The notes under the pieces are model-generated. The model saw only the letters and a list, made by a program, of their open reading frames with translations. It was not told the DNA's origin and searched no databases. A stretch of DNA of 49,367 nucleotides from Candidatus Parcubacteria bacterium. GTDB lineage: Bacteria > Patescibacteriota > Microgenomatia > Levybacterales > GWA1-39-11. Location of the stretch: positions 1 through 49,367 of the forward strand of contig QZIP01000049.1 in assembly GCA_003599595.1 (NCBI GenBank), in the 5' to 3' direction. Shown piece after piece: positions 6,937-24,815 of this stretch. Within the stretch, counting starts at the first letter, position 1. The number at the start of each line of letters is the position of its first letter. Both the position numbers and the translations under genes were made by a program.

Positions 6937-7489
6937 TCTTGAATGGTTAATAGATAAAGCCAAAGAATATGGTGTAGAAAAAGAATCTGAATTTGTTTTA
7001 GACGGCAGATTTGCTACTTGGTCAGGTTCTTCTAAGCCAACAGCCCATCATTATGGTACAGGTGGATTACTTGAACATGTTACTGAAGTAGTTAAACTAT
7101 GTTTACAATCCAATGAATATTTCAAGACAATTGACAAGGGTGTTGATGACAGATTATTGTTCTTAGCTGCTTTGTTTCATGATGTTGGTAAGATTTGGGA
7201 TTATGAATCTTACACCGATTATAATACTGGAGAAATAATTTGGAAATCCAATGATCACAAGAATAAAATTCACCATATCAGTAGATCAGTAATAGTTTGG
7301 AATGAAGCTAGTGTAAATATGAAACAAGAAGAACGAGATGAAGTGACACATGCTATTTTAGCCCATCATGGACAAAGAGCTTGGGGCAGTCCAGTTGAAC
7401 CACAAACCAGACTAGCTTGGTTGCTTCATACTTGTGATCACATGAGTGCCAGAATGGACGATTGCGATAGAAAAAATGGGAGAGCATAA
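6917..7489 (+). CDS. HD-domain phosphohydrolase, YhaM/Cbf1-like
   Basis: AHH-x-x-x-GGLLEH, LFHDVGK, HAILAHHG, WGSPVEP, HTCDHMSAR match the YhaM HD-domain pattern; no N-terminal OB fold. Confidence 0.82.
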   Translation: MSINMSNLEWLIDKAKEYGVEKESEFVLDGRFATWSGSSKPTAHHYGTGGLLEHVTEVVKLCLQSNEYFKTIDKGVDDRLLFLAALFHDVGKIWDYESYTDYNTGEIIWKSNDHKNKIHHISRSVIVWNEASVNMKQEERDEVTHAILAHHGQRAWGSPVEPQTRLAWLLHTCDHMSARMDDCDRKNGRA

Positions 7490-7671
7490 TGGAAAATACA
7501 ATAGAAAGTATTCGTGAAGATTTAGAATATGCGATTAATAGGACATATTTAAGTTGTCCTAATGACTGTGTGCCAAAATCAATTATTAGACAAGTTATTG
7601 ATGCGGAAGCTCCTGAAATCGACCCCAAAAGCTCAATGGAGAGCATATGGAACCTGCCTACAATTTGGTAA
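7489..7671 (+). CDS. hypothetical protein
   Basis: GGAG SD and TAATG overlap; 60 aa. Confidence 0.45.
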   Translation: MENTIESIREDLEYAINRTYLSCPNDCVPKSIIRQVIDAEAPEIDPKSSMESIWNLPTIW

Positions 7672-7919
7672 AATGGGCTGAAGAGTTTGCTTTAGACATT
7701 AAACATTCTATGGATCGTCCATGGAAAATGGGAATAATTGTTCCCAATCCAGATTATCCTCCAGAAGTACCAGCTTCTTGTTGTTCATTTTCACCTTCTC
7801 TTAAAATGAAGAGATATACTTGTAACAATAATAAAGATTATTTATATCTTGGACAATGTGAGAAGTGTGAAGCAATCAGTTTTGCATATGCTGAGGCTGC
7901 TGTTTCTCTCACCAAATGA
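7647..7919 (+). CDS. Cys-containing hypothetical protein, paralog of 7927..8223
   Basis: Shares Y-x-LV-x-WAE, DR-x-W, RYT and YLGQC-x-x-C with the next ORF. Confidence 0.65.
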   Translation: MEPAYNLVKWAEEFALDIKHSMDRPWKMGIIVPNPDYPPEVPASCCSFSPSLKMKRYTCNNNKDYLYLGQCEKCEAISFAYAEAAVSLTK

Positions 7920-7926
7920 GGATTAT

Positions 7927-8223
7927 ATGGAAAATGTTACAATTAAAATTCAACCAAATTATGATCTGGTTGAATGGGCAGAAAAATCTGCTGTTGCTAT
8001 TGCCTATCCTAAAGATAGGGCATGGTATTTTGTGGATTGTCATCCTCCAAATGGACAACCAATAAATTGGGATTGTACTTGTTATTGTTCAAGCCATTCA
8101 AATGTTCGTTTAAGACGTTATACAACTCAAAACGAACAGAATTACTGTTACTTAGGTCAATGTAGAAGTTGTCAGAAGATATTTTGGAATTACACTAAAA
8201 CGGAGGAACAGATTAATGGATAG
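7927..8223 (+). CDS. Cys-containing hypothetical protein, paralog of 7647..7919
   Basis: GAGGA SD before ATG 7927; motifs shared with the previous ORF. Confidence 0.65.
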   Translation: MENVTIKIQPNYDLVEWAEKSAVAIAYPKDRAWYFVDCHPPNGQPINWDCTCYCSSHSNVRLRRYTTQNEQNYCYLGQCRSCQKIFWNYTKTEEQING

Positions 8224-8479
8224 TTATTGTGAAATTTGTTGTGAAGATGTCAATATTTTAAGTCATTACCACTGTTATAACTGTGGTGAAGAATGTTCCG
8301 TTATGGGACATTTGGGAAATGAGGGTTACTATTGTAAAAGAAAGGAATCTTATTTAGCTGTAGGCACTAGGAAGATATTTGACATAGAGGAAGAAGAATT
8401 GTTTGGACACCCAGAATGTGATTGTGATGAAGAAGAAAATGAAAATGAATATGATTGGGAATCTGATTCAGATGAGTGA
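8216..8479 (+). CDS. Cys/His-rich protein with acidic tail
   Basis: CEIC, HYHCYNCG, CSVMGH; GGAGG SD. Confidence 0.6.
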   Translation: MDSYCEICCEDVNILSHYHCYNCGEECSVMGHLGNEGYYCKRKESYLAVGTRKIFDIEEEELFGHPECDCDEEENENEYDWESDSDE

Positions 8480-8657
8480 AGATAGAATATTTTTAGTTTT
8501 GATTTTATTAGCTGCGTTAAATATGGTATTAAACTGGGGATATACATTTCATTGTATTATGGAATGGTTTTTAGGATGGTTGGACAAGGAGTCTGTAAAT
8601 AAAAAACATGAACAATTGAGAGAGCAATGGCTACAGCAAGAGAGATTGAACAATTGA
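8472..8657 (+). CDS. small TM protein
   Basis: MSEDRIFLVLILLAALNMVL hydrophobic helix; start inferred. Confidence 0.5.
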   Translation: MSEDRIFLVLILLAALNMVLNWGYTFHCIMEWFLGWLDKESVNKKHEQLREQWLQQERLNN

Positions 8658-8869
8658 TTGAAATTGCTATTGAAAACAAAAGATATGAAGACGATAATCC
8701 AGAGGTAGGAGCAGATTTCTTTCAGGAGGATAGATTGGTTGAAAATGCCAGACTAGAACTTCATGTAATGATTACAAAAGAACAAAGAGAATATGCTAAA
8801 CAACAATTACAAAATGCTCCTAAAAGATTAATGAGTCCACCAGCTGGTTTTGATAGATATAGAGGGTAA
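8627..8869 (+). CDS. hypothetical protein
   Basis: 80 aa ORF in the tightly packed + strand run. Confidence 0.55.
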   Translation: MATAREIEQLIEIAIENKRYEDDNPEVGADFFQEDRLVENARLELHVMITKEQREYAKQQLQNAPKRLMSPPAGFDRYRG

Positions 8870-8870
8870 A

Positions 8871-9185
8871 ATGAATAGAATTCCACTTCCACCAGAAGGT
8901 CGTATGACTAGAGATTCGGTTGATTTCACCAAACAAAATCCATTATATAGGTGGTATCACCGCAGGTATGAATTTAAGCCAATTCCAAGTGAATATGAAA
9001 TCAATTTTGAAGAGTATAAAAAAAGAGTGTGTGAAAGAAAATATGAACCATATAATCCAATGTATAGAGGTTTGCAAGTCTTAGAACAAGATCATACAAT
9101 TAAAAGATCAAAAACTAGTGTAGAATATTGGGTTTATGGGAATACAGCGGAGAATCCATTATACAGGAAAGTTCAAACATGGTAG
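8871..9185 (+). CDS. hypothetical protein
   Basis: ATG right after the previous stop, GAGGG SD. Confidence 0.55.
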   Translation: MNRIPLPPEGRMTRDSVDFTKQNPLYRWYHRRYEFKPIPSEYEINFEEYKKRVCERKYEPYNPMYRGLQVLEQDHTIKRSKTSVEYWVYGNTAENPLYRKVQTW

Positions 9186-9550
9186 AAGAAGAGAAACTTG
9201 AATGGCAGTTTCCGACATATTTGTTGTTCATAGTAACAACGGCTTGGGCACATCAAAATTTAGATTTAATAAAAGAACATTGGAATCAAGTTAGAGAATA
9301 TTGTAAAACAGAAGAGAAAGTGGAACAACCAAAAGAAAATCCCACAGTAGCGGTTGAAAACACAAAACAAAAACCACCTGTAATAAACCATTCATATTAC
9401 ATACCACCTGTTCATATCGTTCAAACACCTCAACAAGTTTACTATACTTCTAGTTTTAGAGTCCAGCCGTTTCCAGTAGTGAGAAGAAACGCAATAATTG
9501 TAAATTCTTCTTTTAGAAATAGAAATAATAGAGGTATTTTTAGGAGATAA
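9179..9550 (+). CDS. hypothetical protein with TM segment and Pro/Arg-rich tail
   Basis: Hydrophobic stretch FPTYLLFIVTTAW; start inferred at MVEEEK. Confidence 0.55.
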   Translation: MVEEEKLEWQFPTYLLFIVTTAWAHQNLDLIKEHWNQVREYCKTEEKVEQPKENPTVAVENTKQKPPVINHSYYIPPVHIVQTPQQVYYTSSFRVQPFPVVRRNAIIVNSSFRNRNNRGIFRR

Positions 9551-9551
9551 T

Positions 9552-9902
9552 ATGGAAAGAACTGAGTGTAATCTTGAAACATATATGCGTTTCCTAATGG
9601 AAACCATAAATCCAAACAATGAATTTACACCGAGTGTTTATTGGAATAAAAATGGAGATCAAATTGAAGTTTGGTGGAAACGTGATAGTTACTATGCAGA
9701 GAACTTTTATGGAAAAGAATATCCATTAGGAGCTAAGTACATTTCTCAAGAAACTGGTGAAGTGATTGGTGTTTGTATATATGGAATAGAAAATTTATTA
9801 TTCAAAGATAATATGTTAAGTAGGGAACCAGAAAGACAGATGATGGATGCTAAGTTTGCCGAATGGGCAGCAAAACAGGAGAATGTTAATGAGACATCCT
9901 AA
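9552..9902 (+). CDS. hypothetical protein (weak DUF2283-like pattern)
   Basis: AGGAG SD; YWNKNGDQIEV ... ETGEVIGVCIYG. Confidence 0.6.
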   Translation: MERTECNLETYMRFLMETINPNNEFTPSVYWNKNGDQIEVWWKRDSYYAENFYGKEYPLGAKYISQETGEVIGVCIYGIENLLFKDNMLSREPERQMMDAKFAEWAAKQENVNETS

Positions 9903-10194
9903 TTGTACATGTCCTTATAGTGGGCCTGTCCGTACTGGGGACCACTATGCATGTCCATTTCATAAAACTTATGATGCTATAATTAATGGTCAACATGTAA
10001 AAGTACTGCCATATGCTCAGACGGTTGAATCTGAAATGACTAGGATGAAACAGTTATTGGCTAAATGTCTATGGGAGTTACGTCAGCATAATGCTGAATA
10101 TGCTCACATCACCAAGGAGGATTTCCTACGTGAATTAGAGCAATATTGCACCGATGCTGACAAAGATAAAAGCCAAGAACTTCCAAAGCCTTGA
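9889..10194 (+). CDS. hypothetical protein
   Basis: AGGAG SD; CTC...CPFH Zn-like motif. Confidence 0.55.
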   Translation: MRHPNCTCPYSGPVRTGDHYACPFHKTYDAIINGQHVKVLPYAQTVESEMTRMKQLLAKCLWELRQHNAEYAHITKEDFLRELEQYCTDADKDKSQELPKP

Positions 10195-13633: not shown

Positions 13634-14236
13634 ATGTTGGATCTTTCCCAAATACGTCAGAAAACGAACAAATTACTTCATGAACGTGAATTTGCAGCCA
13701 AGCAAGTAGAACTAGAAAAAGCAGCTTTAGAAAAGATTGAAAACAAACTGAAGGATCTCACAGAAGTTCAAGAGATTCTTCAACTTCACGCAGAAGCTGT
13801 TCAGAATAGAGCACAAAAACAAATCTCTTCAATTGCTACTCAAAGTCTTAAACATGTATATGGACCAAATGTAGAATTTAGAATTGAATTCAAGCGTTCT
13901 AAAGGTAAAACAGAAGCAGAATTGAAATTCATAAAAGATGGTCAAGAGTTTGATCCCAAAGAAGAAACAGGTGGTGGAGAATTAGATGTAGCTTCTTTGG
14001 CTCTTAGAATGTCTTGTTTGATGTTATCCAGACCAAGACTTCGTAGATTAATAGTTGCTGATGAGCCGTTTAGAAATATCAATGGTGAAGAATATCAACA
14101 AAGAGCTGGAAATTTAATTCAGCTCCTTGCTGAAGAAATGAAAGTACAATTTGTTGTTGTTTCGGACGACGAATGGCTTAAAGTGGGTAATGTAATTGAT
14201 ATGTCAACATTGAAGAATAAGAAATTACATCAGTAG
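13634..14236 (+). CDS. Rad50/SbcC ATPase, C-terminal half
   Basis: Coiled coil, signature variant TGGGELDVASLALR, Walker B LIVADEPF, final strand VVVSDD. Confidence 0.82.
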   Translation: MLDLSQIRQKTNKLLHEREFAAKQVELEKAALEKIENKLKDLTEVQEILQLHAEAVQNRAQKQISSIATQSLKHVYGPNVEFRIEFKRSKGKTEAELKFIKDGQEFDPKEETGGGELDVASLALRMSCLMLSRPRLRRLIVADEPFRNINGEEYQQRAGNLIQLLAEEMKVQFVVVSDDEWLKVGNVIDMSTLKNKKLHQ

Positions 14237-15006
14237 ATCAAATTGACCTTTTTCAATAATTTTATCCACATTATTAACTTTCTTCCCTGTTCTATGATCT
14301 ACACATCTTGATTCCATATAATTATACGTCCTGATTTTATCACCTCTCCCACCATCTCCTAACTGCTGTTTTCTTATATCTTTATATGATGAAAACTTCT
14401 GATTGTTAGTCAATTCAGTTATTTTAGCAGATAATACCCTTCTAGCTTCTTTTCTATTCTTTCCTTGATCCCTTCCATTAATAAACACGGATAAACCAGT
14501 TGGTTTGTGTTTCAATCGAACTGCACTAGCTACCTTATTAACATTTTGTCCACCTGCGCCTTGTTTTCCAGTTTGAAATGATTCTTCTAAATCTTTTTCT
14601 TGTAAATTAATTTTAGAATTCTGTGGTGGAAGTGGAAGTACAGCAACAGAAATCATAGAAGTTTGTTTTCTTCCATTATGTTCTGTAGGTGGTATTCTTT
14701 GTACACAGTGTTTACCAGATTCCATACGGAATAATTTACCAGCATTACTACCAGTAAACTTGGCTACTATGTGTCCAGGATCATTATCTAATAATTCAGA
14801 TTTTAAACCATTACGAATAGCATATTTGACATATGCATCATAAAGGTTTTCTACAAACAGCTTACTATCGGTTCCACCAACACCGAATTGAATTTCAACA
14901 ACTATTTCTGAGGAAAGGTCAAAGCCAGTCCTTACCTCCAGAGCTATTATTAGCTAGTTGTTGAGAGGAGCTAAAGACACCCCCATGGTTGATTTGAATT
15001 ATTCAT
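14225..15006 (-). CDS. class-1 peptide chain release factor (RF1-like PxT, GGQ; lacks domain 1), predicted to need two +1 programmed frameshifts, about 259 aa
   Basis: Motifs VEIQFGVGGTDSKLF, ESGKHCVQRIPPTE, GRKQTS, GAGGQNVNK, HKPTG, GDKIRTYNY, DHR. Homology runs 65 codons upstream of ATG 14725 with no ATG/GTG/TTG in that frame. SD-led ATG at 15006 joins via CTT-TAG-C and CTT-TGA-C. Confidence 0.88.
14918..14939 (-). promoter_or_regulatory. RF2-style +1 frameshift cassette 2 (UGA-containing)
   Basis: GGAGGT AAGGAC TGG CTT TGA C; the +1 frame (GAC) is the release-factor frame. Confidence 0.8.
14970..14985 (-). promoter_or_regulatory. RF2-style +1 frameshift cassette 1 (UAG-containing)
   Basis: TGGGGG TGT CTT TAG C versus E. 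coli prfB AGGGGG TAT CTT TGA C: same internal SD, 3-nt spacer and slippery CUU-U. Confidence 0.8.
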
Positions 15007-15056
15007 TGTGGAACCTTTCTAAACAAATTGAAAATAATTAACCGGCCCTAAACCCT

Positions 15057-15083
15057 ATTATAACGTTCAAACGTGTCTTACAA
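15057..15083 (-). promoter_or_regulatory. putative sigma70-type promoter of the release factor gene, with palindrome ACGTT-TG-AACGT in the spacer
   Basis: TTGTAA-15 nt-TATAAT about 50 nt upstream of ATG 15006; spacer is short. Confidence 0.45.
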
Positions 15084-15132
15084 CTGTATAAACTTGGCAA
15101 ACAAATAATAAAAATGAACCTTAACCGCGTTA

Positions 15133-15951
15133 TTAAGCGTAATAATCTTCTGGAATCATTTCATTTGGTCTGGTGTCTAATTCCATACTTTCAGTAATTT
15201 TTGCCATAAATGGTTCAATTAGTTCTTGATTTTGCTTTTCGATTTTTTCTATTACTGAAACTATTTTTCTATCAGACCATCCATTACGAACCCCAATTTC
15301 CAATACTCCTTCAGGTGTTAGTAAGTATTGATAGCCTTGATTTGTATTAGGATGATTACCTTTTTTGGGTTTTATAGGAATACGTTCAATCAAGTTATTT
15401 TTGATAAGTCTCTGCAATATACCACTAACTGATGAGGGTTTTAGATTTGAATCATTTTTATTGTATTCCCTACTTATAGAAGAATAATTATTGTTCCCAT
15501 TTAGTATTGCATTCAATACATCCTTTCCAGAAATTCCAATTTTAGCACGATTATTTGAATTTGAATTTGTTACTACTTTTGATTTGAGTTTAGCTTTTTC
15601 CTTACTGTTTCTTAATACAGGAGCCATCTTTTGTTTTTTAGGAACTACAATTTCTTCTTTTTTATGTGATGGATATATTTGATATTCCCCGGTTCTTTTG
15701 GCTGGACTGACATTATAATCCAATTTTTCAAATGCGTGAGAAGCACTACCAGATCTTATTACATATGGATCATGACTACTGTAATATGAATTAGGATCAT
15801 GTTGTTCTGCAGTGCTAGTTTTAGATTCAATTTCGTTTTTAGGTTCTTTTTTTATTTCATCTTTAACTTGTTTTAATTGTGTATTTGGATTCTTCTGTTT
15901 TGGTACAGATGTATTTTCAGAACCAGTATTTTGATTATTTGTTTCTGTCAT
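15133..15951 (-). CDS. basic protein with winged-helix-like domain; paralog of 16376..17224
   Basis: VSGILQRLIKNNLIER...YQYLLTPEG wHTH pattern; C-terminus DTRPNEMIPEDYYA. Confidence 0.7.
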   Translation of the reverse strand: MTETNNQNTGSENTSVPKQKNPNTQLKQVKDEIKKEPKNEIESKTSTAEQHDPNSYYSSHDPYVIRSGSASHAFEKLDYNVSPAKRTGEYQIYPSHKKEEIVVPKKQKMAPVLRNSKEKAKLKSKVVTNSNSNNRAKIGISGKDVLNAILNGNNNYSSISREYNKNDSNLKPSSVSGILQRLIKNNLIERIPIKPKKGNHPNTNQGYQYLLTPEGVLEIGVRNGWSDRKIVSVIEKIEKQNQELIEPFMAKITESMELDTRPNEMIPEDYYA

Positions 15952-16376
15952 TATTGCCATTTGGTAGAATAACTACTTGCAACTCTGCGAAATCCTCTTG
16001 AACGATATACAGCCCAAAAATACTTTCCTTTAGAAACAGCTTTTCTAAAAGCATCCACTTCACCTCTGCTACTGGAATACAAATATGGTAATCCAGAAGA
16101 TTTCTTAAATTGAACTAACACTTCTTCTGTTTCTGGAAAGAACTTGAACCAAAAGATATGAGAAGAAGCAGGATATAAAGCTGTTTCACCACGCCAAAAG
16201 GAATCATCTTCAACTTCTTCTTCCTCTTCTTCTCCAAATAAAGCTTCTAATAATAGTTCTTCAGCTGTTAAGTCAGTTTCTTCCTCTTCATCAATAGTAT
16301 TTGGAAACTTTTTAGATGGAAGAGGAGGTCTTTTCTGAATTTTACCAAAATTGGATTTATTGAATTGTTTAGCCAT
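15951..16376 (-). CDS. KTSC-domain protein with acidic linker
   Basis: SSHIFWFKFFPETEEVLVQFK...YLY...AVSKGKYF matches the KTSC pattern. Confidence 0.7.
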   Translation of the reverse strand: MAKQFNKSNFGKIQKRPPLPSKKFPNTIDEEEETDLTAEELLLEALFGEEEEEEVEDDSFWRGETALYPASSHIFWFKFFPETEEVLVQFKKSSGLPYLYSSSRGEVDAFRKAVSKGKYFWAVYRSRGFRRVASSYSTKWQ

Positions 16377-17224
16377 TATGCGTAATAATCTTCTGGTATC
16401 ATTTCATTAGGACGGGAATCTATATTCATATATTCTGAAACTTTTGAAGCGGCTGTATTTTCCATTTTTTCTAAAGCTTGTTTTTTAAGTTTTGCAGTTT
16501 TTCTTTTTAATTGTTTATTTTTAGATTCTATTTTTCTGATTTCTCTAGCAATTTTTTCGTTTGACCAACCATTATTTATGCCTATTTCTAAAATTCCGTA
16601 TGGAGTTAAACTGTATGTATATTTTTGTCTAGCTCCCTCACTTAATACATTAGGTTTCATTGCATATCTACTAACTAATCCACGAACAACCATTCTTGCT
16701 AACATGGTAGATAATGCTATATTTTGGATTTTATTATCATCTTGAGAAAGATTTAAATTAATCAAACTACCAAAATTGTCAGCTCCATTAAATATAGAAT
16801 CTAATATTCTACGAGAAGTAATAGCATTTTTTTGTAATTTTCCATATGAAGAACCACCGCGCTTGGCTTGACTGCCCCTTAATCCTATTTCATCTACAAT
16901 TTCTGGTTTTTGAGTCTCAAATGGAGATTGTTTTATTAATTTTGTTTTAAGTTCGCGTCTTTCTTTTGGTGTTCTTTCTAATATGGGTGGATCAGACTGG
17001 TTTGGATCAGAAACTACTTGCTCTGGTTTACCTGGTCTACCTACTGTATATTTTGTATATACATTGTCAGGTCTTGGTTTTGTCCAGGGGGTATAATTAA
17101 TATCAAAAAAGTTTGTATTGCTTCTTGATTCAATTTCCTTTTTTGGTTCCTTTTTAACTTCATCCTTAACTGGTTGTGGTTTCTGTATTTCAGTTTTAGG
17201 TTGTTTTGGTGTATTTTCATTCAT
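16376..17224 (-). CDS. basic protein with winged-helix-like domain; paralog of 15133..15951
   Basis: LSTMLARMVVRGLVSR...YTYSLTPYG; C-terminus DSRPNEMIPEDYYA. Confidence 0.7.
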   Translation of the reverse strand: MNENTPKQPKTEIQKPQPVKDEVKKEPKKEIESRSNTNFFDINYTPWTKPRPDNVYTKYTVGRPGKPEQVVSDPNQSDPPILERTPKERRELKTKLIKQSPFETQKPEIVDEIGLRGSQAKRGGSSYGKLQKNAITSRRILDSIFNGADNFGSLINLNLSQDDNKIQNIALSTMLARMVVRGLVSRYAMKPNVLSEGARQKYTYSLTPYGILEIGINNGWSNEKIAREIRKIESKNKQLKRKTAKLKKQALEKMENTAASKVSEYMNIDSRPNEMIPEDYYA

Positions 17225-20221: not shown

Positions 20222-21235
20222 TTAAAGCTCCGCTGAGGCTGTATATTGAAATCGCATGCCGGTCTTGCTCGTAGCGGCGTCACTTGTCATCAAGAAGCCG
20301 GTGTTGCCCTGACTGCTGACGGTGCCGGTGCGATTGTTGCCAACGGCGTAGTAGAAAACCTTGCTGGCGTTACCGCTCATATCCCAATAACTGATTGTCG
20401 GCGTCGTGCGCATGGCCGACTGCCAATTAACATGCACCACGGTCGCCGCAGTGCTTGCACCAGAAATAGCCACGCCCGCTGAGCCGACGACGGTTGCAGT
20501 CGCAGGTACAGTCTCAGTCTCGTAACTCTTCCGGTAGTACCTCTGGCACATCGCCAGTTCTGTCTCAAAGTCCCGTATCTCGAAATCCGTCGCCGTGTCG
20601 CCGACTTCAAGCTGAACTTGGCTGAGGTAGAAGTCGTTGCTGGTGGAGTCCATGCCGTTGACTTGGTTAGCAGTTGCTTCATAATTACCCGTTTGCCAAG
20701 CGTCTGCGGTGGTATGATAATTAGAGCCGGCTGCTATAACAAATAGCAGTTGGACACCGACACCATTGGTATAATCCCATGTCCCGGCTGACGGCGAAGC
20801 TGGAAATGTTACAGTTTTCCTTTCCCATGTATCAGATGTGGAAATGGTGTATTCAATAACACAAGACCTGTCTGCACCGCCGTTACGAAGTGCAACACAA
20901 AACGTGCCGGTCTTAGTTGACCTTACCCAAAACGAAACCGTAACAGATTTTTGAGCAAAGTTTTTCCAGTTATACCCCTCAACTATTTGATATATATGGT
21001 AAACATCACTAGCTCCAATACTCGCATCTATTGTGGTGCAATCCACCTTGAAAGAGTAGTTTGACAGCTTTCCTGACTGAGCCACCGTTGGAATTGTGGT
21101 GCTTCTACTAACAGTTGCCACGCCTACACCAACAGACCCATATACCCATCTATCGGCCATGTAGCCGCCAGCCGCTGCAAAGCTCGTCCCCCGCTGCCAA
21201 ATGTCAAAGTCGCCGTTGATGATGGTGTTCTTCAT
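20222..21235 (-). CDS. tail fibre / carbohydrate-binding-like receptor domain (may be the frameshifted C-terminus of 21312..24815)
   Basis: KNTIINGDFDIWQRGTSF, ADRW, VQLEVGDTATDFE, ELAMCQRYY motifs; frame open up to 21337; GGTGGG SD-like before ATG 21235. Confidence 0.75.
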   Translation of the reverse strand: MKNTIINGDFDIWQRGTSFAAAGGYMADRWVYGSVGVGVATVSRSTTIPTVAQSGKLSNYSFKVDCTTIDASIGASDVYHIYQIVEGYNWKNFAQKSVTVSFWVRSTKTGTFCVALRNGGADRSCVIEYTISTSDTWERKTVTFPASPSAGTWDYTNGVGVQLLFVIAAGSNYHTTADAWQTGNYEATANQVNGMDSTSNDFYLSQVQLEVGDTATDFEIRDFETELAMCQRYYRKSYETETVPATATVVGSAGVAISGASTAATVVHVNWQSAMRTTPTISYWDMSGNASKVFYYAVGNNRTGTVSSQGNTGFLMTSDAATSKTGMRFQYTASAEL

Positions 21236-21311
21236 CCCACCAGCATAAATGGAAAGAAGACCTTCAGGGTACCTATTTCTTTCTTGAGCCAATGTTTCAG
21301 GTCGCCAAGTT

Positions 21312-24300
21312 CTAATCATTGTAAAGTCCAATCTCACTCATATGCACTACAGCTCCACTAGCTATTGGACCATTAGCCCAAATCGCGGGGACCAAACAAA
21401 CTCCACCACTTAATGATTGTAAAACTACACTAAACACATTCCAAGTACCACCTAATTGACAAGTGACAGCAGGACCAAGTAAAGCAACTCCGGAACCCCA
21501 AGTTGGATCAGTACCACTAGTACCAACTGCAAATCCACTAACAAAAGAATTAGGAACAAAATCAAAATTAGCAACCGAAACACCACTAACAGGAGCACCA
21601 ACTCCACTGGTCGTTTGTAAGATACCCATTCTCATAATCAAACCAGATAAAGCAGCAGTTGTCTTCAATTGAGCCTGGAACGTTAACATTGCTCGATTCA
21701 ATGCTTGGGTATCAGTACAACTCAAGTTCTGATAAACTGCAAACTTGTGACCGCTCTGCGTTATTTGAAATTGACCATAGTATCTATTAGACAAACCACT
21801 AGTGAAACCAGATTGCATTTGATCCCACTGTTGATACATCACCATACTAAATCCAGAAGCAGGAGCTCCCGAAGACCAAGCAACATAAAAACTATCTGGT
21901 CCTACAACATCCGTTCCAGTTCCATGCACTCCAGAAAAACTCAAAACATTGTTGACCAATGGACCATACATACTTTGGGTCCACAAACCACCATTAGTCA
22001 ACCAATTATACTCGCTTCCTGAGTTTATAACTCCAGAAGCCAAGTGCATCTGACCAATTTGACCACTTGCTACACTGCCTGAGACTACAACTCCACTGGC
22101 AAGACTTGGATTAGGATAAGTCCCAGTTAAAGCCCCACCAGCAGTTCCAGCTAATTGAGTATTAGTTGCTCCTTCAGCAGATAGCGTATACCAACCATCA
22201 TCATAATACATTCCTTGACTTGGAGTTAACAACGACTTGGCTTCAGTTCGTAAACTACCTCCAGCATTAGTTTGAACTGTAACCCCAGCAGTTGCAGTAT
22301 CAATATTGAAAACTGATATATGACTTACGTCAACTGCATATCCTGAAGCTGGAGCAGAAATCATAGTAACAGCGGCAGTACCACTAACTAAACCGTTATT
22401 TGCTCCTGGTTGACTGGTTAGATCGGTATTGTTGACGGTGGTATAACCAACATTCCAAGTCAATCCACTAGTAGTAATAGCCCCACTGAGTACAACCTCT
22501 AGTGCTATACCACTGGTTAGAATAATGCCGCGTTTGCGTTGACGAGCAGCTATTCCACCCCAAGCAGTTCCTAGATGTTCCCCAGCAACTTGACCGGAAG
22601 CTATGGAACCAGATACAACCGCTCCATTACCAATCAATCCGGAGGTGATGATACCGCTGGTTAATGCGAAGGAACCTGAGGTGTTTGTAACCGTATAGGT
22701 GTTCGTAGTTGTGACTGCAACAGATATACCAGCTCCAGCAGCGACAACAAAAGCCCCAGATGCAAGATGACCGCTGTTGACTGCGCCACTAGCTAGATGC
22801 ATCCGACCAATGGCACCGGAAGCTACATATCCACTTACTATACTCCCAGAAGGAAGGAGAATGGTGCCAGATATAGCTGTTAAGGAATTGGATGTTCCAA
22901 TGAAGATTCTTCCATATACAGTGCCGACATATACATCACCATTGCCGGCACCGCTTGCTCCAACACCCCCATCAAGGTAAAGATTACCACCAGAACCACC
23001 GACATTTCCTGCATTAGCAAGACCTCCTGGTCCACCATAGATGTAAGTATTGCCACCTGTTGCACCTCTGTTCTGACCGGAACTAGCTGAAGTTCCTCCT
23101 TGTCCGGCTTGTACTGTCAACGTACCACCGTCGCCTGCCAACATTCCAGTACCAGAAGTAGCGGTACCTCCAGTGCCAGCAGTTATTTGAATTAAGCCAC
23201 CAAGTCCAGCGGAACCACTTAGGGATGCAGATCCACCTAACGAGGCTCCAATAACAAGACTAGGAGCAGTAGTATTGACTGCTACTCCAGCTTGCGCCCC
23301 ACCTATTCTGATTGTAGTCGGCGTAACTAAGCCAATGTTCAACGCACCGAACATCCCAGCATCAACATACAATGTACCGGAATTGACATCGGTTGAGATA
23401 TTGATGTTAGTACCATCATCCGATATCAAACTAGTACCAAGAAGTCTTGAAGCTATCCACTTTGTTAGATAACCACTAGTTCCAGTACCAGATAAAAGAA
23501 TAACACCAGAAGCTAGATGCATTCCTCCTATAGAACCACTACTAATATTTCCACTGTTTACAGCATTATTACCAATTAGTCCTGATACTATAATACCTGA
23601 AGTTAATGAACTGCCAGCACCAGACAAGTTAGTAAGTAATATACCACTAAGACCAGGTGTAACAGATATCCCTGGACCAGGTAGTAATGTGCCTGATTGA
23701 ATATGGACAGCAGCAATTTGACCGCTACCAATATTACCGGATAGAACAGCATTATTAGCAATTTCGCCAGATTGAATTAACCCAGAAGCAATTCTCCAAA
23801 AATAAACTGTATCAACACCGGAACGACCAACAAATACTGAATTATCAACACCAGCATCTATAGCTCCAGCACCAATAATTGTTCTATAGGTACCACCACC
23901 ACTGTTAAGAAAGGTAGTGTCCGCACCAATTAAAGTATTTGAATCCCCGTAAGTAACTCCTGCACCACCGACATCATCTCCTGCACCATATCCAATAAAC
24001 GTATTTTTACTACCGCTACTTAATATTGCTCCAGTGTTTGCTCCAAGTGCTGTATTTCCACTAGCCGTATTTACAACATTGACTAAAGATTGAACGCCTA
24101 CAGCTACATTTTCGCTACCATTAGTCAAATTTTTAAGTGCAAAATATCCTACTGCGGTATTATCATTTCCACGAGTATTAAGTTGTAACGCATCATAACC
24201 AACAGCAGTATTATCTATACCAGATATATTATCTGTTAATGCTGCGTCGCCAACAGCAGTGTTGTAATCAGCTAAATTATCAGCTAGGGCGTAAGCTCCT

Positions 24301-24815
24301 ACTGCTGTGTTGTAGCTTCCCGAAATTACGTTCTTAAGAGCATGAAATCCAAACGCAGTGTTTTCTGTAAAGGAAGTAGAAAATCCAGAACTTAAAGCAT
24401 TCACACCTGCTCTGGTATTTTCTTCAAATGGAATAGATACTAATTGAAAACCGGATGCTATGTGGTTTGGGGAAACTGCCCCTGAACTAATGTTTCCAGA
24501 ATTTACAGCATTATTGCCAATTAACCCAGAAACTATGATTCCAGAGGTAAGAGCAGTAGCAGCTCCTGATGTATTTGTAATGGTTAATATGTTTGGCGCA
24601 GTTGCTGCAATATTAACACCAGGACCAGCTGCAACTTGGAACGCACCTGAAGCCATTACTCCAGATACAATAATACCAGAAGCTAGATGGAATCTACCTA
24701 TTTGACCAGATGCTATGTAACCACTGGTCAATCCACCTGATTGAATTCTAAACACAACTCCTGTTGGAGTTGGAAGCCCATCAATTCCAGATGATCCAAT
24801 TACAATCGTATTCAA
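21312..24815 (-). CDS. long Ser-Gly-rich tail fibre with beta-helix repeats and a Gly-rich segment
   Basis: TTG start after AGGT; NTAVG-x-x-AL repeats, GGxGG runs, xxSG pentapeptides, terminal CBM-like domain that appears truncated. Confidence 0.75.
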   Translation of the reverse strand: MNTIVIGSSGIDGLPTPTGVVFRIQSGGLTSGYIASGQIGRFHLASGIIVSGVMASGAFQVAAGPGVNIAATAPNILTITNTSGAATALTSGIIVSGLIGNNAVNSGNISSGAVSPNHIASGFQLVSIPFEENTRAGVNALSSGFSTSFTENTAFGFHALKNVISGSYNTAVGAYALADNLADYNTAVGDAALTDNISGIDNTAVGYDALQLNTRGNDNTAVGYFALKNLTNGSENVAVGVQSLVNVVNTASGNTALGANTGAILSSGSKNTFIGYGAGDDVGGAGVTYGDSNTLIGADTTFLNSGGGTYRTIIGAGAIDAGVDNSVFVGRSGVDTVYFWRIASGLIQSGEIANNAVLSGNIGSGQIAAVHIQSGTLLPGPGISVTPGLSGILLTNLSGAGSSLTSGIIVSGLIGNNAVNSGNISSGSIGGMHLASGVILLSGTGTSGYLTKWIASRLLGTSLISDDGTNINISTDVNSGTLYVDAGMFGALNIGLVTPTTIRIGGAQAGVAVNTTAPSLVIGASLGGSASLSGSAGLGGLIQITAGTGGTATSGTGMLAGDGGTLTVQAGQGGTSASSGQNRGATGGNTYIYGGPGGLANAGNVGGSGGNLYLDGGVGASGAGNGDVYVGTVYGRIFIGTSNSLTAISGTILLPSGSIVSGYVASGAIGRMHLASGAVNSGHLASGAFVVAAGAGISVAVTTTNTYTVTNTSGSFALTSGIITSGLIGNGAVVSGSIASGQVAGEHLGTAWGGIAARQRKRGIILTSGIALEVVLSGAITTSGLTWNVGYTTVNNTDLTSQPGANNGLVSGTAAVTMISAPASGYAVDVSHISVFNIDTATAGVTVQTNAGGSLRTEAKSLLTPSQGMYYDDGWYTLSAEGATNTQLAGTAGGALTGTYPNPSLASGVVVSGSVASGQIGQMHLASGVINSGSEYNWLTNGGLWTQSMYGPLVNNVLSFSGVHGTGTDVVGPDSFYVAWSSGAPASGFSMVMYQQWDQMQSGFTSGLSNRYYGQFQITQSGHKFAVYQNLSCTDTQALNRAMLTFQAQLKTTAALSGLIMRMGILQTTSGVGAPVSGVSVANFDFVPNSFVSGFAVGTSGTDPTWGSGVALLGPAVTCQLGGTWNVFSVVLQSLSGGVCLVPAIWANGPIASGAVVHMSEIGLYND

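What the first reader, a model, noticed from the sequence alone, without database searches (positions are those of the whole stretch)
14225..15020. Phage release factor behind two tandem +1 frameshift cassettes (CUU-UAG-C, then CUU-UGA-C): a candidate RF1-and-RF2 sensing AND gate
Seen on the - strand: SD AGAAAGGT, then ATG 15006 AAT AAT TCA AAT CAA CCA TGG GGG TGT CTT TAG C. A +1 shift gives AGC TCC TCT CAA CAA CTA GCT AAT AAT AGC TCT GGA GGT AAG GAC TGG CTT TGA C. A second +1 shift gives GAC CTT TCC TCA GAA ATA GTT GTT GAA ATT CAA TTC GGT..., the release-factor frame. The product would be MNNSNQPWGCL / SSSQQLANNSSGGKDWL / DLSSEIVVEIQFGVGGTD... (11+17+231 aa). The RF frame has no ATG/GTG/TTG upstream of its conserved VEIQFGVGGT strand, so the ORF-track call (14725) misses 65 conserved codons. 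Established: bacterial prfB autoregulates through AGGGGG-NNN-CUU-UGA-C, where low RF2 allows +1 slippage; RF1 reads UAG and RF2 reads UGA. Cassette 1 is almost that motif with UAG; cassette 2 carries the canonical CUU-UGA-C after SD-like GGAGGT/AAGGA. Inference: full-length factor is made efficiently only when termination is slow at both UAG and UGA, for example when late translation or a host defence depletes release factors, and the product can feed back on at least the UAG site. I know of no described double cassette, but cannot check the literature.
Basis: partly seen in the sequence, partly recalled or inferred. Interest (0 to 1): 0.97.

Follow-up and report, generated by a model that had tools for sequence, protein, structure and literature searches.

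The report
Twice-frameshifted phage release factor gene
A phage gene for a shortened RF1-type translation termination factor can apparently be read only if the ribosome slips forward one base at two successive stop codons, and related genes in large phages and some bacteria carry one or two of the same slip sites, so the known self-regulating trick of bacterial RF2 seems to extend to a release-factor family thought to lack it.

Summary
On the minus strand, ATG 15006 opens an 11-codon ORF ending GGGGG-TGT-CTT-TAG-C. The +1 frame then runs 17 codons to CTT-TGA-C. The next +1 frame encodes a 231-residue RF1-type release factor lacking domain 1.

Comparison settles the main question. Of 49 distinct homologous loci (phage contigs and MAGs), 45 reach the factor frame through in-phase CTT-stop sites: 34 have one and 11 have two. 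CTT-stop hexamers number 60 against about 8 expected. In 77 ordinary RF1 genes, 4 chance sites occur, none with a start. A related contig spans both sites without gaps.

The rival reading, ATG 14986 plus readthrough of TAG 14956, fails in the relatives.

The RF1-and-RF2 AND gate is only partly supported. Stop identity is labile: TAG+TGA occurs in 2 of 11 doubles, and 6 of 11 use the same stop twice.

The family is not phage-only; Obscuribacterales carry it chromosomally as a third paralogue.

My searches found no report of frameshifting in an RF1-type or phage factor. The closest precedent is Mimivirus. Nothing has been tested experimentally.

The parts
15014..15020 (-). Shine-Dalgarno-like AGAAAGG, 7 bases upstream of the initiator ATG 15006
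   Evidence: Read. Homologues have AAGGAGG- or GGAGG-type sites at the same distance before the frame-0 ATG.
14974..15006 (-). Frame-0 leader ORF of 11 sense codons (MNNSNQPWGCL), ending in the slippery CTT
   Evidence: This is the only ATG/GTG/TTG in that frame upstream of the site. Leaders of the relatives begin similarly, M-(S/K)-K-x-K-N-Q.
14970..14984 (-). Cassette 1 (distal): GGGGG TGT CTT TAG C, that is an SD-like element, a 3-base spacer, CUU, UAG and C
   Evidence: SD pairing is -9.0 kcal/mol. Distal sites in the one required frame occur in 11 relatives.
14922..14972 (-). +1 frame segment of 17 codons (SSSQQLANNSSGGKDWL) linking the two cassettes
   Evidence: The frame is open between the sites and has no ATG/GTG/TTG of its own.
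14918..14939 (-). Cassette 2 (proximal): GGAGGT AAGGAC TGG CTT TGA C
   Evidence: SD pairing is -10.6 kcal/mol. A site at this position relative to the core occurs in 45 of 49 loci. An independent contig shows no difference here.
14225..14920 (-). Release-factor frame: 231 codons (domains 2-4 of an RF1-type factor) plus TAA
   Evidence: Pfam PCRF 100-194/194 and RF-1 3-116/116. NCBIfam prfA 208 bits covering 104-332/347. PDB RF1 about 140 bits, RF2 about 101, PrfH about 43.
14684..14692 (-). P-P-T tripeptide at the position of the RF1 P-x-T codon-recognition motif
   Evidence: Aligned to P-V-T of Thermus thermophilus RF1. It is PPT in most clade members; the variants are PHT, PHL, PKN, PSN and PDN.
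14546..14554 (-). GGQ peptidyl-tRNA hydrolysis motif
   Evidence: Invariant in 23 of 23 aligned clade members.
14954..14986 (-). Factor-frame ATG 14986 / GTG 14980 followed by in-frame TAG 14956-14954 (basis of the rejected readthrough rival)
   Evidence: In relatives the factor-frame stop here varies (TAG, TGA, TAA), and 38 of 45 cassette-bearing loci have no start in that frame.

Best explanation
The window encodes, on a phage contig, a class I peptide release factor of RF1 type that lacks the N-terminal domain 1. Its synthesis requires two successive programmed +1 ribosomal frameshifts of the kind known from bacterial prfB.

Ribosomes start at ATG 15006 and reach CUU in the P site with UAG in the A site. 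An SD-like GGGGG sits 3 bases upstream, and C follows the stop, which is a poor termination context. Some ribosomes are released, giving an 11-residue peptide. On the others, the peptidyl-tRNA slips from CUU to UUU and translation continues in the +1 frame. Seventeen codons later the same choice recurs at CUU-UGA-C. Only ribosomes that slip twice make the 259-residue factor.

Because a release factor competes with slippage at each site, output falls as termination capacity rises, and two sites in series multiply that dependence. The product has RF1-type recognition residues, so it should feed back on the UAG site, while the UGA site should answer to host RF2.

Shown here: the sequence anatomy; the conservation of one or two in-phase cassettes across the family; the absence of an ordinary start for the factor frame in most loci; and the absence of assembly indels. 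Inferred: that frameshifting actually occurs, its efficiency, which factors compete at each site, and the factor's stop-codon specificity.
For: - Anatomy.
- Family: of 26 distinct loci from phage contigs, the metagenome scan and the window itself at 45% identity or more, 23 have CTT-stop sites that lead into the factor frame, 8 of them double. Of 23 MAG loci, 22 have them, 3 double. Unified, this is 45 of 49 loci: 34 single and 11 double.
- Unbiased census: 33 hexamers against 3.9 expected and 27 against 4.1 expected. Of 15 hexamers additional to the proximal site, 12 lie in the one frame of three that a distal site needs.
- Controls: in 77 full-length RF1 loci, a frame-joining CTT-stop occurs in 4, all 220-307 nt upstream and none with a start codon in the outer frame.
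- Missing starts: the factor frame lacks ATG/GTG/TTG before the core in 38 of 45 cassette-bearing loci.
- Database gene calls: of 120, 72 begin inside or after the first conserved strand, 43 run upstream in the factor frame and show the F-D/E/S footprint of C-TTT-GA/AG, and 5 have plain starts.
- SD-like element: 19 of 31 cassettes in the set reach -6 kcal/mol or lower, against 6.7% of 4122 control positions (p = 1.6e-10). C follows the stop in 20 of 31, against 3 of 52 at real gene ends in the window.
- Independent origin: L018's two cassettes are a 22-base tandem duplication with period 34, which is 1 modulo 3.
- Frame-preserving change: L181 and L182 differ by a 3-base indel between their sites.
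- Assembly: an independent soil-metagenome contig about 94% identical spans 14862-14996 with 0 gaps.
- Factor type.
- Domain 1: truncated RF1 is reported to function in vitro and in vivo (PMC1586002, passages read).
Against: - There is no experimental evidence, and no RNA run holds the stretch.
- Seven of the 45 cassette-bearing loci also have a possible GTG/TTG start in the factor frame (L010, L019, L183, L184, L187, L188, L190).
- In five of the ten other double loci the middle frame has its own ATG or TTG, so the distal site might be bypassed there (L005, L007, L018, L186; L009 has a far-upstream TTG). L109, L110, L181 and L182 also list starts in that frame, 79-349 nt upstream of the core, which I did not inspect. 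The window and L001 have none.
- The SD-like stimulator is absent from most MAG single cassettes: only the 3 distal of 25 accepted sites reach -6 kcal/mol. It is also absent from several proximal sites on phage contigs.
- The commonest stop on the phage contigs is UGA (19 of 31), which an RF1-type factor should not read. Simple autoregulation therefore does not explain those sites.
- In one search, two of the eight substitutions of the independent contig are not listed and may lie near its ends, so cassette 1 in that relative is not verified letter for letter.
- Four clade members do without a cassette.
Confidence: 0.8

Rival explanations
1. No frameshift. Translation starts in the factor frame at ATG 14986 (or GTG 14980), and the single in-frame TAG 14956-14954 is read through or suppressed, as in TAG-recoded phages.
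For: One search shows the ATG, nine more codons, the TAG and then the core in one frame. L001 and L005 also have a TAG in that frame shortly before the core. Phages that recode TAG are known (10.1101/2021.08.26.457843, passages read).
Against: - The window uses TAG as a terminator in 13 of 52 gene proxies, is about 90% coding under the standard code, and holds no tRNA.
- In relatives the factor-frame stop before the core is TAG, TGA or TAA at varying positions, and 38 of 45 loci have no start codon in that frame.
- ATG 14986 has no SD-like element, whereas ATG 15006 does.
- The apparent V-S-L-A conservation is what G-TGT-CTT-TAG-C reads as in the other frame.
- This reading gives no reason for two phased CTT-stop-C motifs with SD-like elements.
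Confidence: 0.05
2. Only the proximal CUU-UGA-C site is used. Translation of the +1 frame begins at a non-canonical codon (ATA 15002, ATT 14999 or ATC 14993), and the ATG 15006 ORF is an unrelated or regulatory upstream ORF.
For: Single-cassette genes are the majority, 34 of 45. In five of the ten other double loci the middle frame has its own ATG or TTG that could bypass the distal site.
Against: - The window's middle frame has no ATG/GTG/TTG, and the SD-like AGAAAGG is placed for ATG 15006.
- Distal CTT-stop sites recur in 11 loci placed at about 8 separate positions on the tree, in the required frame in 12 of 15 extra hexamers.
- Nine of the 11 distal sites carry SD-like elements of -7 kcal/mol or lower with a 3-base spacer.
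Confidence: 0.07
3. The factor is initiated directly in its own frame at a near-cognate codon after TAG 14956 (ATA 14950/14947 or CTG 14941), with no recoding at all.
For: GGAGGT at 14939-14934 could in principle serve as a ribosome binding site. Five of 120 database relatives and two clade loci (L114, L197) have ordinary direct starts.
Against: - No ATG/GTG/TTG follows GGAGGT at a usable distance in the factor frame.
- CTG and ATA lie upstream of, not downstream from, that element.
- No such start is conserved in relatives, whereas the CTT-stop is.
Confidence: 0.03
4. The gene is a decaying pseudogene, or the frame changes are assembly errors.
For: Two frame disruptions in 90 bases is what a broken gene or a homopolymer error could look like. 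Automatic annotation calls only a 166-residue fragment.
Against: - The 231-codon core is intact, with GGQ and all family-invariant residues.
- The same architecture is seen in dozens of independent assemblies.
- An independent contig spans both sites with no gaps.
- The disruptions are not random indels; they fall exactly at CTT-stop-C motifs.
Confidence: 0.02

Closest known systems
Bacterial prfB (RF2) autoregulatory +1 programmed frameshift, consensus SD-like-NNN-CUU-UGA-C
   Same: The slippery codon is the same (CUU in the 0 frame, followed directly by a stop). An SD-like element with a 3-base spacer is present in cassette 1 and in many relatives. C follows the stop. The site lies early in a class I release-factor gene and needs no downstream RNA structure. 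The logic of competition between termination and slippage is the same.
   Different: - The gene is RF1-type, not RF2, and lacks domain 1.
- The site lies before domain 2, after a 10-28 residue leader, rather than about 25 codons into domain 1.
- The stop may be UAG, UAA or UGA. In bacterial prfB, TGA is used in 98.6% of 8,164 genomes and TAG in none, and no frameshift was found for prfA (PMC12421855, passages read).
- Two cassettes occur in tandem in 11 of 45 loci.
- At UGA sites the encoded factor probably cannot compete, so they would not be self-regulating.
Mimivirus/Megavirus class I release factor gene (R726/mg280), translated through a frameshift and a readthrough
   Same: It is a virus-encoded release factor whose mRNA carries two internal stops that must both be recoded. 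The authors interpret this as a stronger buffer against overproduction (PMC3521657, abstract and Discussion read).
   Different: It is a eukaryotic/archaeal eRF1-type protein in a virus of amoebae and is not homologous. It uses one frameshift plus one readthrough, not two identical +1 sites. It has been verified experimentally; this one has not.
PrfH (RF-H), the domain-1-less release-factor homologue paired with RtcB2
   Same: It is a short class I factor that keeps GGQ and lacks domain 1 (PMC1586002, passages read).
   Different: Sequence similarity is weak (NCBIfam prfH 50.7 bits against a cut-off of 166.65; PDB PrfH about 43 bits against about 140 for RF1). The RF1 P-x-T region is retained. 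No RtcB or other conserved neighbour was found within the 1.5-3 kb flanks. No frameshift is described for prfH.
Release factors of huge and recoded phages (RF1 in TGA-recoded Jade phages, RF2 in TAG-recoded Lak and Agate phages)
   Same: These are phage-borne class I release factors. The closest relatives of the window's gene lie on phage contigs of about 9-570 kb.
   Different: Those factors are discussed as parts of a code-change module. The word frameshift does not occur in either paper (PMC7162821; 10.1101/2021.08.26.457843; passages read, supplementary tables not seen). This window uses the standard code.

Membership tests
prfB-type +1 programmed frameshift site | CUU in the 0 frame followed immediately by an in-frame stop, with the +1 frame open and encoding the rest of the release factor | tested here: met
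   Both window sites meet this. The same holds in 45 of 49 clade loci.
prfB-type +1 programmed frameshift site | SD-like element about 3 bases upstream of CUU | tested here: met
   The window has GGGGG-TGT-CTT (-9.0 kcal/mol) and GGAGGT/AAGGA before TGG-CTT (-10.6). Across the family the picture is mixed: 19 of 31 cassettes in the set but only 3 of 25 MAG cassettes reach -6.
prfB-type +1 programmed frameshift site | Weak termination context, with C after the stop | tested here: met
   C follows both window stops. This is seen in 20 of 31 cassettes in the set and 24 of 27 MAG hexamers, against 3 of 52 gene ends in the window.
prfB-type +1 programmed frameshift site | The internal stop is one that the encoded factor itself reads (autoregulation) | tested here: inconclusive
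   UAG at cassette 1 fits an RF1-type product. UGA at cassette 2 does not. Specificity is inferred only from P-P-T aligned to P-V-T.
prfB-type +1 programmed frameshift site | Frameshifting demonstrated and responsive to release-factor level | not testable with these tools
   This needs reporters, a reconstituted translation system or mass spectrometry.
Peptide chain release factor 1 (prfA; NCBIfam NF001859 / TIGR00019) | GGQ hydrolysis motif | tested here: met
   G123-G124-Q125, invariant in 23 of 23 aligned members.
Peptide chain release factor 1 (prfA; NCBIfam NF001859 / TIGR00019) | P-x-T tripeptide at the codon-recognition loop | tested here: met
   P-P-T aligns with P-V-T of T. thermophilus RF1. 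The Gln of VQR and the Thr of xTS are kept, and the His before that Thr is Gln. The roles of these residues are recalled, not tested.
Peptide chain release factor 1 (prfA; NCBIfam NF001859 / TIGR00019) | Full length including N-terminal domain 1, with a score above the curated cut-off | tested here: not met
   208.1 bits against a cut-off of 400. The match covers model positions 104-332 of 347, and Pfam PCRF is matched only from 100 of 194.
Peptide chain release factor 2 (prfB; TIGR00020) | S-P-F tripeptide and best score to the RF2 model | tested here: not met
   The tripeptide is P-P-T, not S-P-F. The RF2 model scores 153.4 bits against 208.1 for RF1. PDB RF2 scores about 101 bits against about 140 for RF1.
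PrfH (TIGR03072) | Score above the cut-off and an adjacent rtcB-type gene | tested here: not met
   50.7 bits against a cut-off of 166.65. No conserved neighbour was found in 49 loci within 1.5-3 kb; only an HNH endonuclease recurs, in 5.

The most novel reading that the evidence does not exclude
The tandem heterotypic cassette (UAG then UGA) is a true two-input translational gate. The phage makes its own domain-1-less, RF3-independent RF1-type factor only when both host termination activities are limiting. The UAG site then closes the loop on the phage factor itself. More broadly, serial frameshift sites would be a general, easily evolved way (by a duplication of 1 modulo 3 bases) to sharpen the response of a sensor of termination capacity. 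A bolder variant is that these short factors read all three stops, so that every cassette is self-regulating.
Probability: 0.3. Interest if true: 0.9.

Novelty: new variant of a known kind. Interest (0 to 1): 0.8.

Why it matters
Programmed +1 frameshifting at CUU-stop is a textbook case of translational autoregulation. It has been treated as a peculiarity of RF2. A 2025 survey of more than 12,000 genomes found no frameshift for prfA and never a TAG in the motif (PMC12421855), and all CUU-stop sites in RECODE are prfB (PMC10885494).

This work finds a large, unnamed family of short RF1-type factors, with more than 120 protein clusters in public data that are at most labelled release factor 1. 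The family uses the same device with UAG, UAA or UGA, often twice in a row, in large phages and as a third paralogue in Obscuribacterales and Pirellulaceae.

Four things follow:
- These genes are systematically mis-annotated as truncated fragments.
- The frameshift sensor is modular and evolves quickly, by stop swaps and by duplications.
- The family offers natural single and double, homotypic and heterotypic variants for testing how serial recoding shapes a response curve.
- It raises the question of what a domain-1-less RF1 does for a phage that uses the standard code.

Tried and rejected
- **Genome-wide stop recoding of the window:** rejected. All three stops end genes, the window is about 90% coding under code 11, and it holds no tRNA.
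- **TAG readthrough from ATG 14986:** rejected on comparative grounds.
- **A single -1 shift from frame 0 into the factor frame:** rejected, because the factor frame has TAG 14956 downstream of the end of the frame-0 ORF.
- **Bypassing from CUU to CUU (as in T4 gene 60):** adds nothing, because the landing codon is again followed by UGA. I considered this without a separate test.
- **Termination-reinitiation:** there is no start codon in the factor frame near either stop.
- **Transcriptional slippage:** the T run is only 3 long.
- **RNA structure as a stimulator:** the leader folds no better than shuffles (z = -0.73), and Rfam gives no match.
- **Promoter scan:** no sigma-70-like site in 15021-15132 on the minus strand. 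There is one weak terminator-like hairpin at 14134-14118.
- **Conserved partner gene:** none found.
- **First viral scan with the single protein:** found nothing. The metagenome scan was swamped by ordinary RF1 and gave one clade member, L019. I used the rest as controls.
- **Sequencing runs:** no RNA holder is listed, and only two DNA runs hold small shares. Laid contigs cover 14632-14782, 14763-14919 and 14862-14996.
- **Comparing substitutions by codon position between close pairs** (by eye and 42 output): did not discriminate between frames.
- **Trees:** backbones are weakly supported, so the number of independent gains of the second cassette is only approximate. In one search four outgroup rows were cut short by internal TGA codons.
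- **Structure prediction:** not available, so the domain composition rests on profile matches only.
- **Supplementary tables:** those of PMC7162821 and of the Borges preprint, which list phage release factors, could not be seen and might mention frame disruptions.
Full report
**1. What is in the window**

On the minus strand, an SD-like AGAAAGG lies 7 bases before ATG 15006. The ORF runs for 11 sense codons and ends TGG GGG TGT CTT, followed by TAG (14973-14971) and C. One base further on, the +1 frame is open for 17 codons (AGC 14972 to CTT 14924-14922), followed by TGA (14921-14919) and C. One base further again, GAC 14920 opens a 231-codon frame that ends at TAA 14227-14225. My frame trace recovers exactly these two sites and finds no ATG, GTG or TTG in the middle frame, or in the factor frame between its upstream stop and the conserved core. 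ORF finding under the standard code gives only a 166-residue fragment from ATG 14725.

The 231-residue product matches Pfam PCRF (model positions 100-194 of 194) and RF-1 (3-116 of 116). It also matches the NCBIfam RF1 model at 208 bits, over positions 104-332 of 347. That is below the cut-off of 400 because the first 100-odd positions, domain 1, are missing. RF2 scores 153 bits and PrfH 51. Against solved structures, RF1 scores about 140 bits, RF2 about 101 and PrfH about 43. The window's P-P-T aligns with the P-V-T of Thermus RF1, and GGQ is present.

The contig is phage. It has a major head protein, tail fibre and tail spike families, and an RNA ligase. It is about 90% coding under code 11, holds no tRNA, and uses TAA, TAG and TGA as terminators in 31, 13 and 8 gene proxies. 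It is one whole contig of a 1.4 Mb bin that also holds full-length RF1-like and RF2-like genes.

**2.

The factor frame itself contains ATG 14986 and GTG 14980, then nine or seven codons, then TAG 14956-14954, then the core. One readthrough would be simpler than two frameshifts. The first homologue I looked at, a 595 kb uncultured phage at 56% identity, kept both readings alive. It has AAGGAGG-N8-ATG, 11 codons, TGT CTT TAA C, 15 codons, CGT CTT TGA C and then the core. But it also has a GTG and a TAG in the factor frame.

**3. Comparative test**

Scans of viral contigs with alignments of the core, one metagenome scan and one scan of species-representative genomes gave 201 loci. I anchored each on the core with tblastn and traced the frames upstream with one algorithm.

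The clade at roughly 40% identity or more to the window core contains 49 distinct loci. All lack domain 1, and most share the signature FINGRDQ. Their leaders break down as follows:

| Class | Loci | Stop codons |
|---|---|---|
| Single cassette | 34 | 18 TAG, 15 TGA, 1 TAA |
| Double cassette | 11 | window and L005 TAG/TGA; L001 and L110 TAA/TGA; L007 TAA/TAG; L009 and L109 TGA/TGA; L018, L181, L182 and L186 TAG/TAG |
| No cassette | 4 | L011 and L016 have a start codon and an in-frame TGA in the factor frame; L114 and L197 start directly |

So 45 of 49 loci reach the factor frame through a CTT-stop site in the phase that a +1 shift requires. The factor frame has no start codon before the core in 38 of the 45.

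The stop that closes the factor frame upstream varies between TAG, TGA and TAA and moves in position. That removes the readthrough rival.

An unbiased census of every CTT-stop hexamer within 175 nt of the core start found 33 against 3.9 expected (26 loci of the clade set) and 27 against 4.1 expected (23 MAG loci). Of the 15 hexamers beyond the proximal site, 12 lie in the one frame of three needed for a distal site.

As a control I used 77 ordinary full-length RF1 loci from the metagenome scan. All have a start about 100 codons upstream in the factor frame. Only 4 have a frame-joining CTT-stop, all at -220 to -307 nt and none with a start codon in the outer frame.

**4. Features of the sites**

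In the 31 cassettes of the set, the 14 bases before the spacer pair with a generic anti-SD at -6 kcal/mol or lower in 19 cases. Only 6.7% of 4122 control positions do (p = 1.6e-10). The usual form is GGGGG or GGAGG followed by exactly three bases. The codon before CTT is TGT in 15 and TGG in 5. C follows the stop in 20, whereas only 3 of 52 real gene ends in the window have C there. Both window cassettes are strong (-9.0 and -10.6 kcal/mol).

The picture is not uniform. Most single cassettes in MAGs, including all the Obscuribacterales ones, have no SD-like element, and neither do several proximal sites on phage contigs. The distal sites of double loci, by contrast, nearly always have one (9 of 11 at -7 or lower). 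No RNA structure or Rfam family is associated with the window's leader.

**5. Evolutionary behaviour**

Double loci fall at about eight separate places on a tree of the cores, often next to single-cassette sisters. Backbone support is weak, so I do not put a number on gains and losses. Three observations bear on how these sites change:

- L018's two cassettes are a tandem duplication of a 22-base unit with period 34, which is 1 modulo 3. This shows one easy route to a second site, and at least one origin independent of the window's.
- L181 and L182 differ by a 3-base indel between their sites, which preserves the phase.
- L012 and L013 encode nearly identical cores but use TAA and TAG and have different leaders. 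Within one Pirellulaceae clade, TAG and TGA alternate.

What is conserved is the cassette, not the leader peptide or the identity of the stop.

**6. Assembly error excluded**

A 151-base contig from an independent soil metagenome, about 94% identical, covers 14862-14996 with no gaps. The six listed substitutions all lie between the cassettes. Cassette 2 shows no difference. Two further substitutions are not listed and may lie near the contig ends, so cassette 1 is not verified letter for letter there.

**7. The family in public data**

The 120 best protein clusters are all 204-293 residues long. The only functional name any source gives is peptide chain release factor 1. Their called N-termini are erratic:

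- 72 start inside or after the first conserved strand.
- 43 run upstream in the factor frame and show F-D, F-E or F-S just before the core, which is how C-TTT-GA or C-TTT-AG reads in that frame.
- 5 look like ordinary starts.

This is protein-level and indirect, but it fits a family without a normal start.

**8. Not only phages**

In a Candidatus Obscuribacter scaffold of 759 kb, the gene sits among an ECF sigma/anti-sigma pair, MsrAB, an aminotransferase and a TPR protein. The three MAG genomes I searched each also hold full-length RF1 and RF2. So in some bacteria the short factor is a third paralogue, there with a single CTT-TAG-C. No neighbour is conserved across the clade; an HNH endonuclease recurs in five loci.

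**9. Mechanism and the AND gate**

By analogy with prfB, each site sets up a competition between release and a CUU-to-UUU slip. This analogy rests on established knowledge, with passages read in PMC12421855, PMC3711429 and PMC10885494. Two sites in series multiply the two pass probabilities.

For this window, the RF1-type product should compete at UAG but not at UGA. The family does not conserve that logic, however. Only 2 of 11 doubles pair TAG with TGA, 6 use the same stop twice, and on phage contigs the commonest stop is UGA (19 of 31), which an RF1-type factor should not read.

I see three possibilities, and nothing here decides between them:

- UGA sites report host RF2 activity.
- These short factors read more than RF1 does. 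The His before the conserved Thr is Gln in the window and many relatives, and some members have P-x-N instead of P-x-T.
- The sites simply hold expression low.

**10. Literature**

Five searches and passages in nine papers found no report of programmed frameshifting in an RF1-type or phage release-factor gene.

- Prince et al. 2025 report none for prfA and no TAG in 8,164 prfB motifs.
- Baranov et al. 2006 carry a reviewer's statement that the RF1 family lacks the mechanism. The paper also notes that RF1 without domain 1 works.
- Al-Shayeb et al. 2020 and Borges et al. 2021 mention phage RF1 and RF2 without the word frameshift. I could not see their supplements.
- The closest precedent is the Mimivirus factor, which needs a frameshift and a readthrough.
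- Genes with several frameshifts are known elsewhere (PMC5009743, one passage).

The searched library lacks most subscription journals, so absence there is not proof.

**11. Verdict**

The AND-gate interpretation is plausible for this locus but is neither conserved nor tested.

Noticed in passing
L131, L132, L135, L136, L140, L145, L153, L158 (viral contigs), core residue 53/54 equivalent: A second group of short, directly started phage RF1-like genes (35-41% identity to the window core) all carry an in-frame TGA at the same place in the core. L158 has it at residue 49, and L145 has a second one at 46. These are either TGA-recoded phages or a conserved UGA readthrough point inside a release-factor gene.
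   Followed up: partly
L167/L168, about 295 nt upstream of the core-equivalent position: A full-length RF2-like gene on 236-266 kb phage contigs has a prfB-position site GAGGAG-TCG-CTT-TAG-C and the tripeptide S-R-F instead of S-P-F. A TAG in this motif was found in 0 of 8,164 bacterial genomes by Prince et al. L170 and L173 have the ordinary CTT-TGA with S-P-F.
   Followed up: partly
L011 and L016 (viral contigs), leader of the factor gene: Two members of the same clade have no CTT-stop. Instead they have a start codon in the factor frame followed by an in-frame TGA, after 10 and 4 codons. This may be a readthrough version of the same sensor, or TGA-recoded phages. The L016 gene sits inside a tRNA cluster (Thr, Asp, Phe, Gln, Ser).
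   Followed up: partly
window 15133-15960 and 16376-17224, minus strand: Two tandem paralogous ORFs (275 and 282 aa) lie just upstream of the factor gene. They share a lysine-rich N-terminal stretch and an almost identical C-terminal end (…RPNEMIPEDYYA). The first has no Pfam or PHROG match; the second was not searched.
   Followed up: partly
L203 (G001:C2:228000-247000), factor gene at about 9248-9916: In Candidatus Obscuribacter the chromosomal short RF1-type gene, with a single CTT-TAG-C, lies next to an ECF sigma factor, a zf-HC2 anti-sigma factor and an MsrB-MsrA fusion. This may hint at a stress-linked role.
   Followed up: no
L205 (G002:C90:512000-531500), 7375-9619: In a Bacteriovoracaceae MAG the double-cassette gene lies beside a TnpB/IS605 OrfB gene and an RlaP (RNA repair pathway nucleotidyltransferase) gene, within a polysaccharide-synthesis region.
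   Followed up: no
G000:C45:2619-3290 (L004) and G000:C5:15443-16090 (L003): The bin that holds the window also has an RF2-like gene (S-P-F) whose frame is open 92 codons upstream, with a start and no CTT-stop site. It also has an RF1-like gene (P-E-T) with only about 68 codons before the core. I did not examine whether these contigs are host or phage.
   Followed up: no
window 20222-21337, minus strand: This is the only gene proxy in the window that ends in CTT followed by a stop (…GAG CTT TAA). It overlaps the start of the 1167-residue tail-spike-like ORF (21312-24815). I did not examine it for frameshifting.
   Followed up: no
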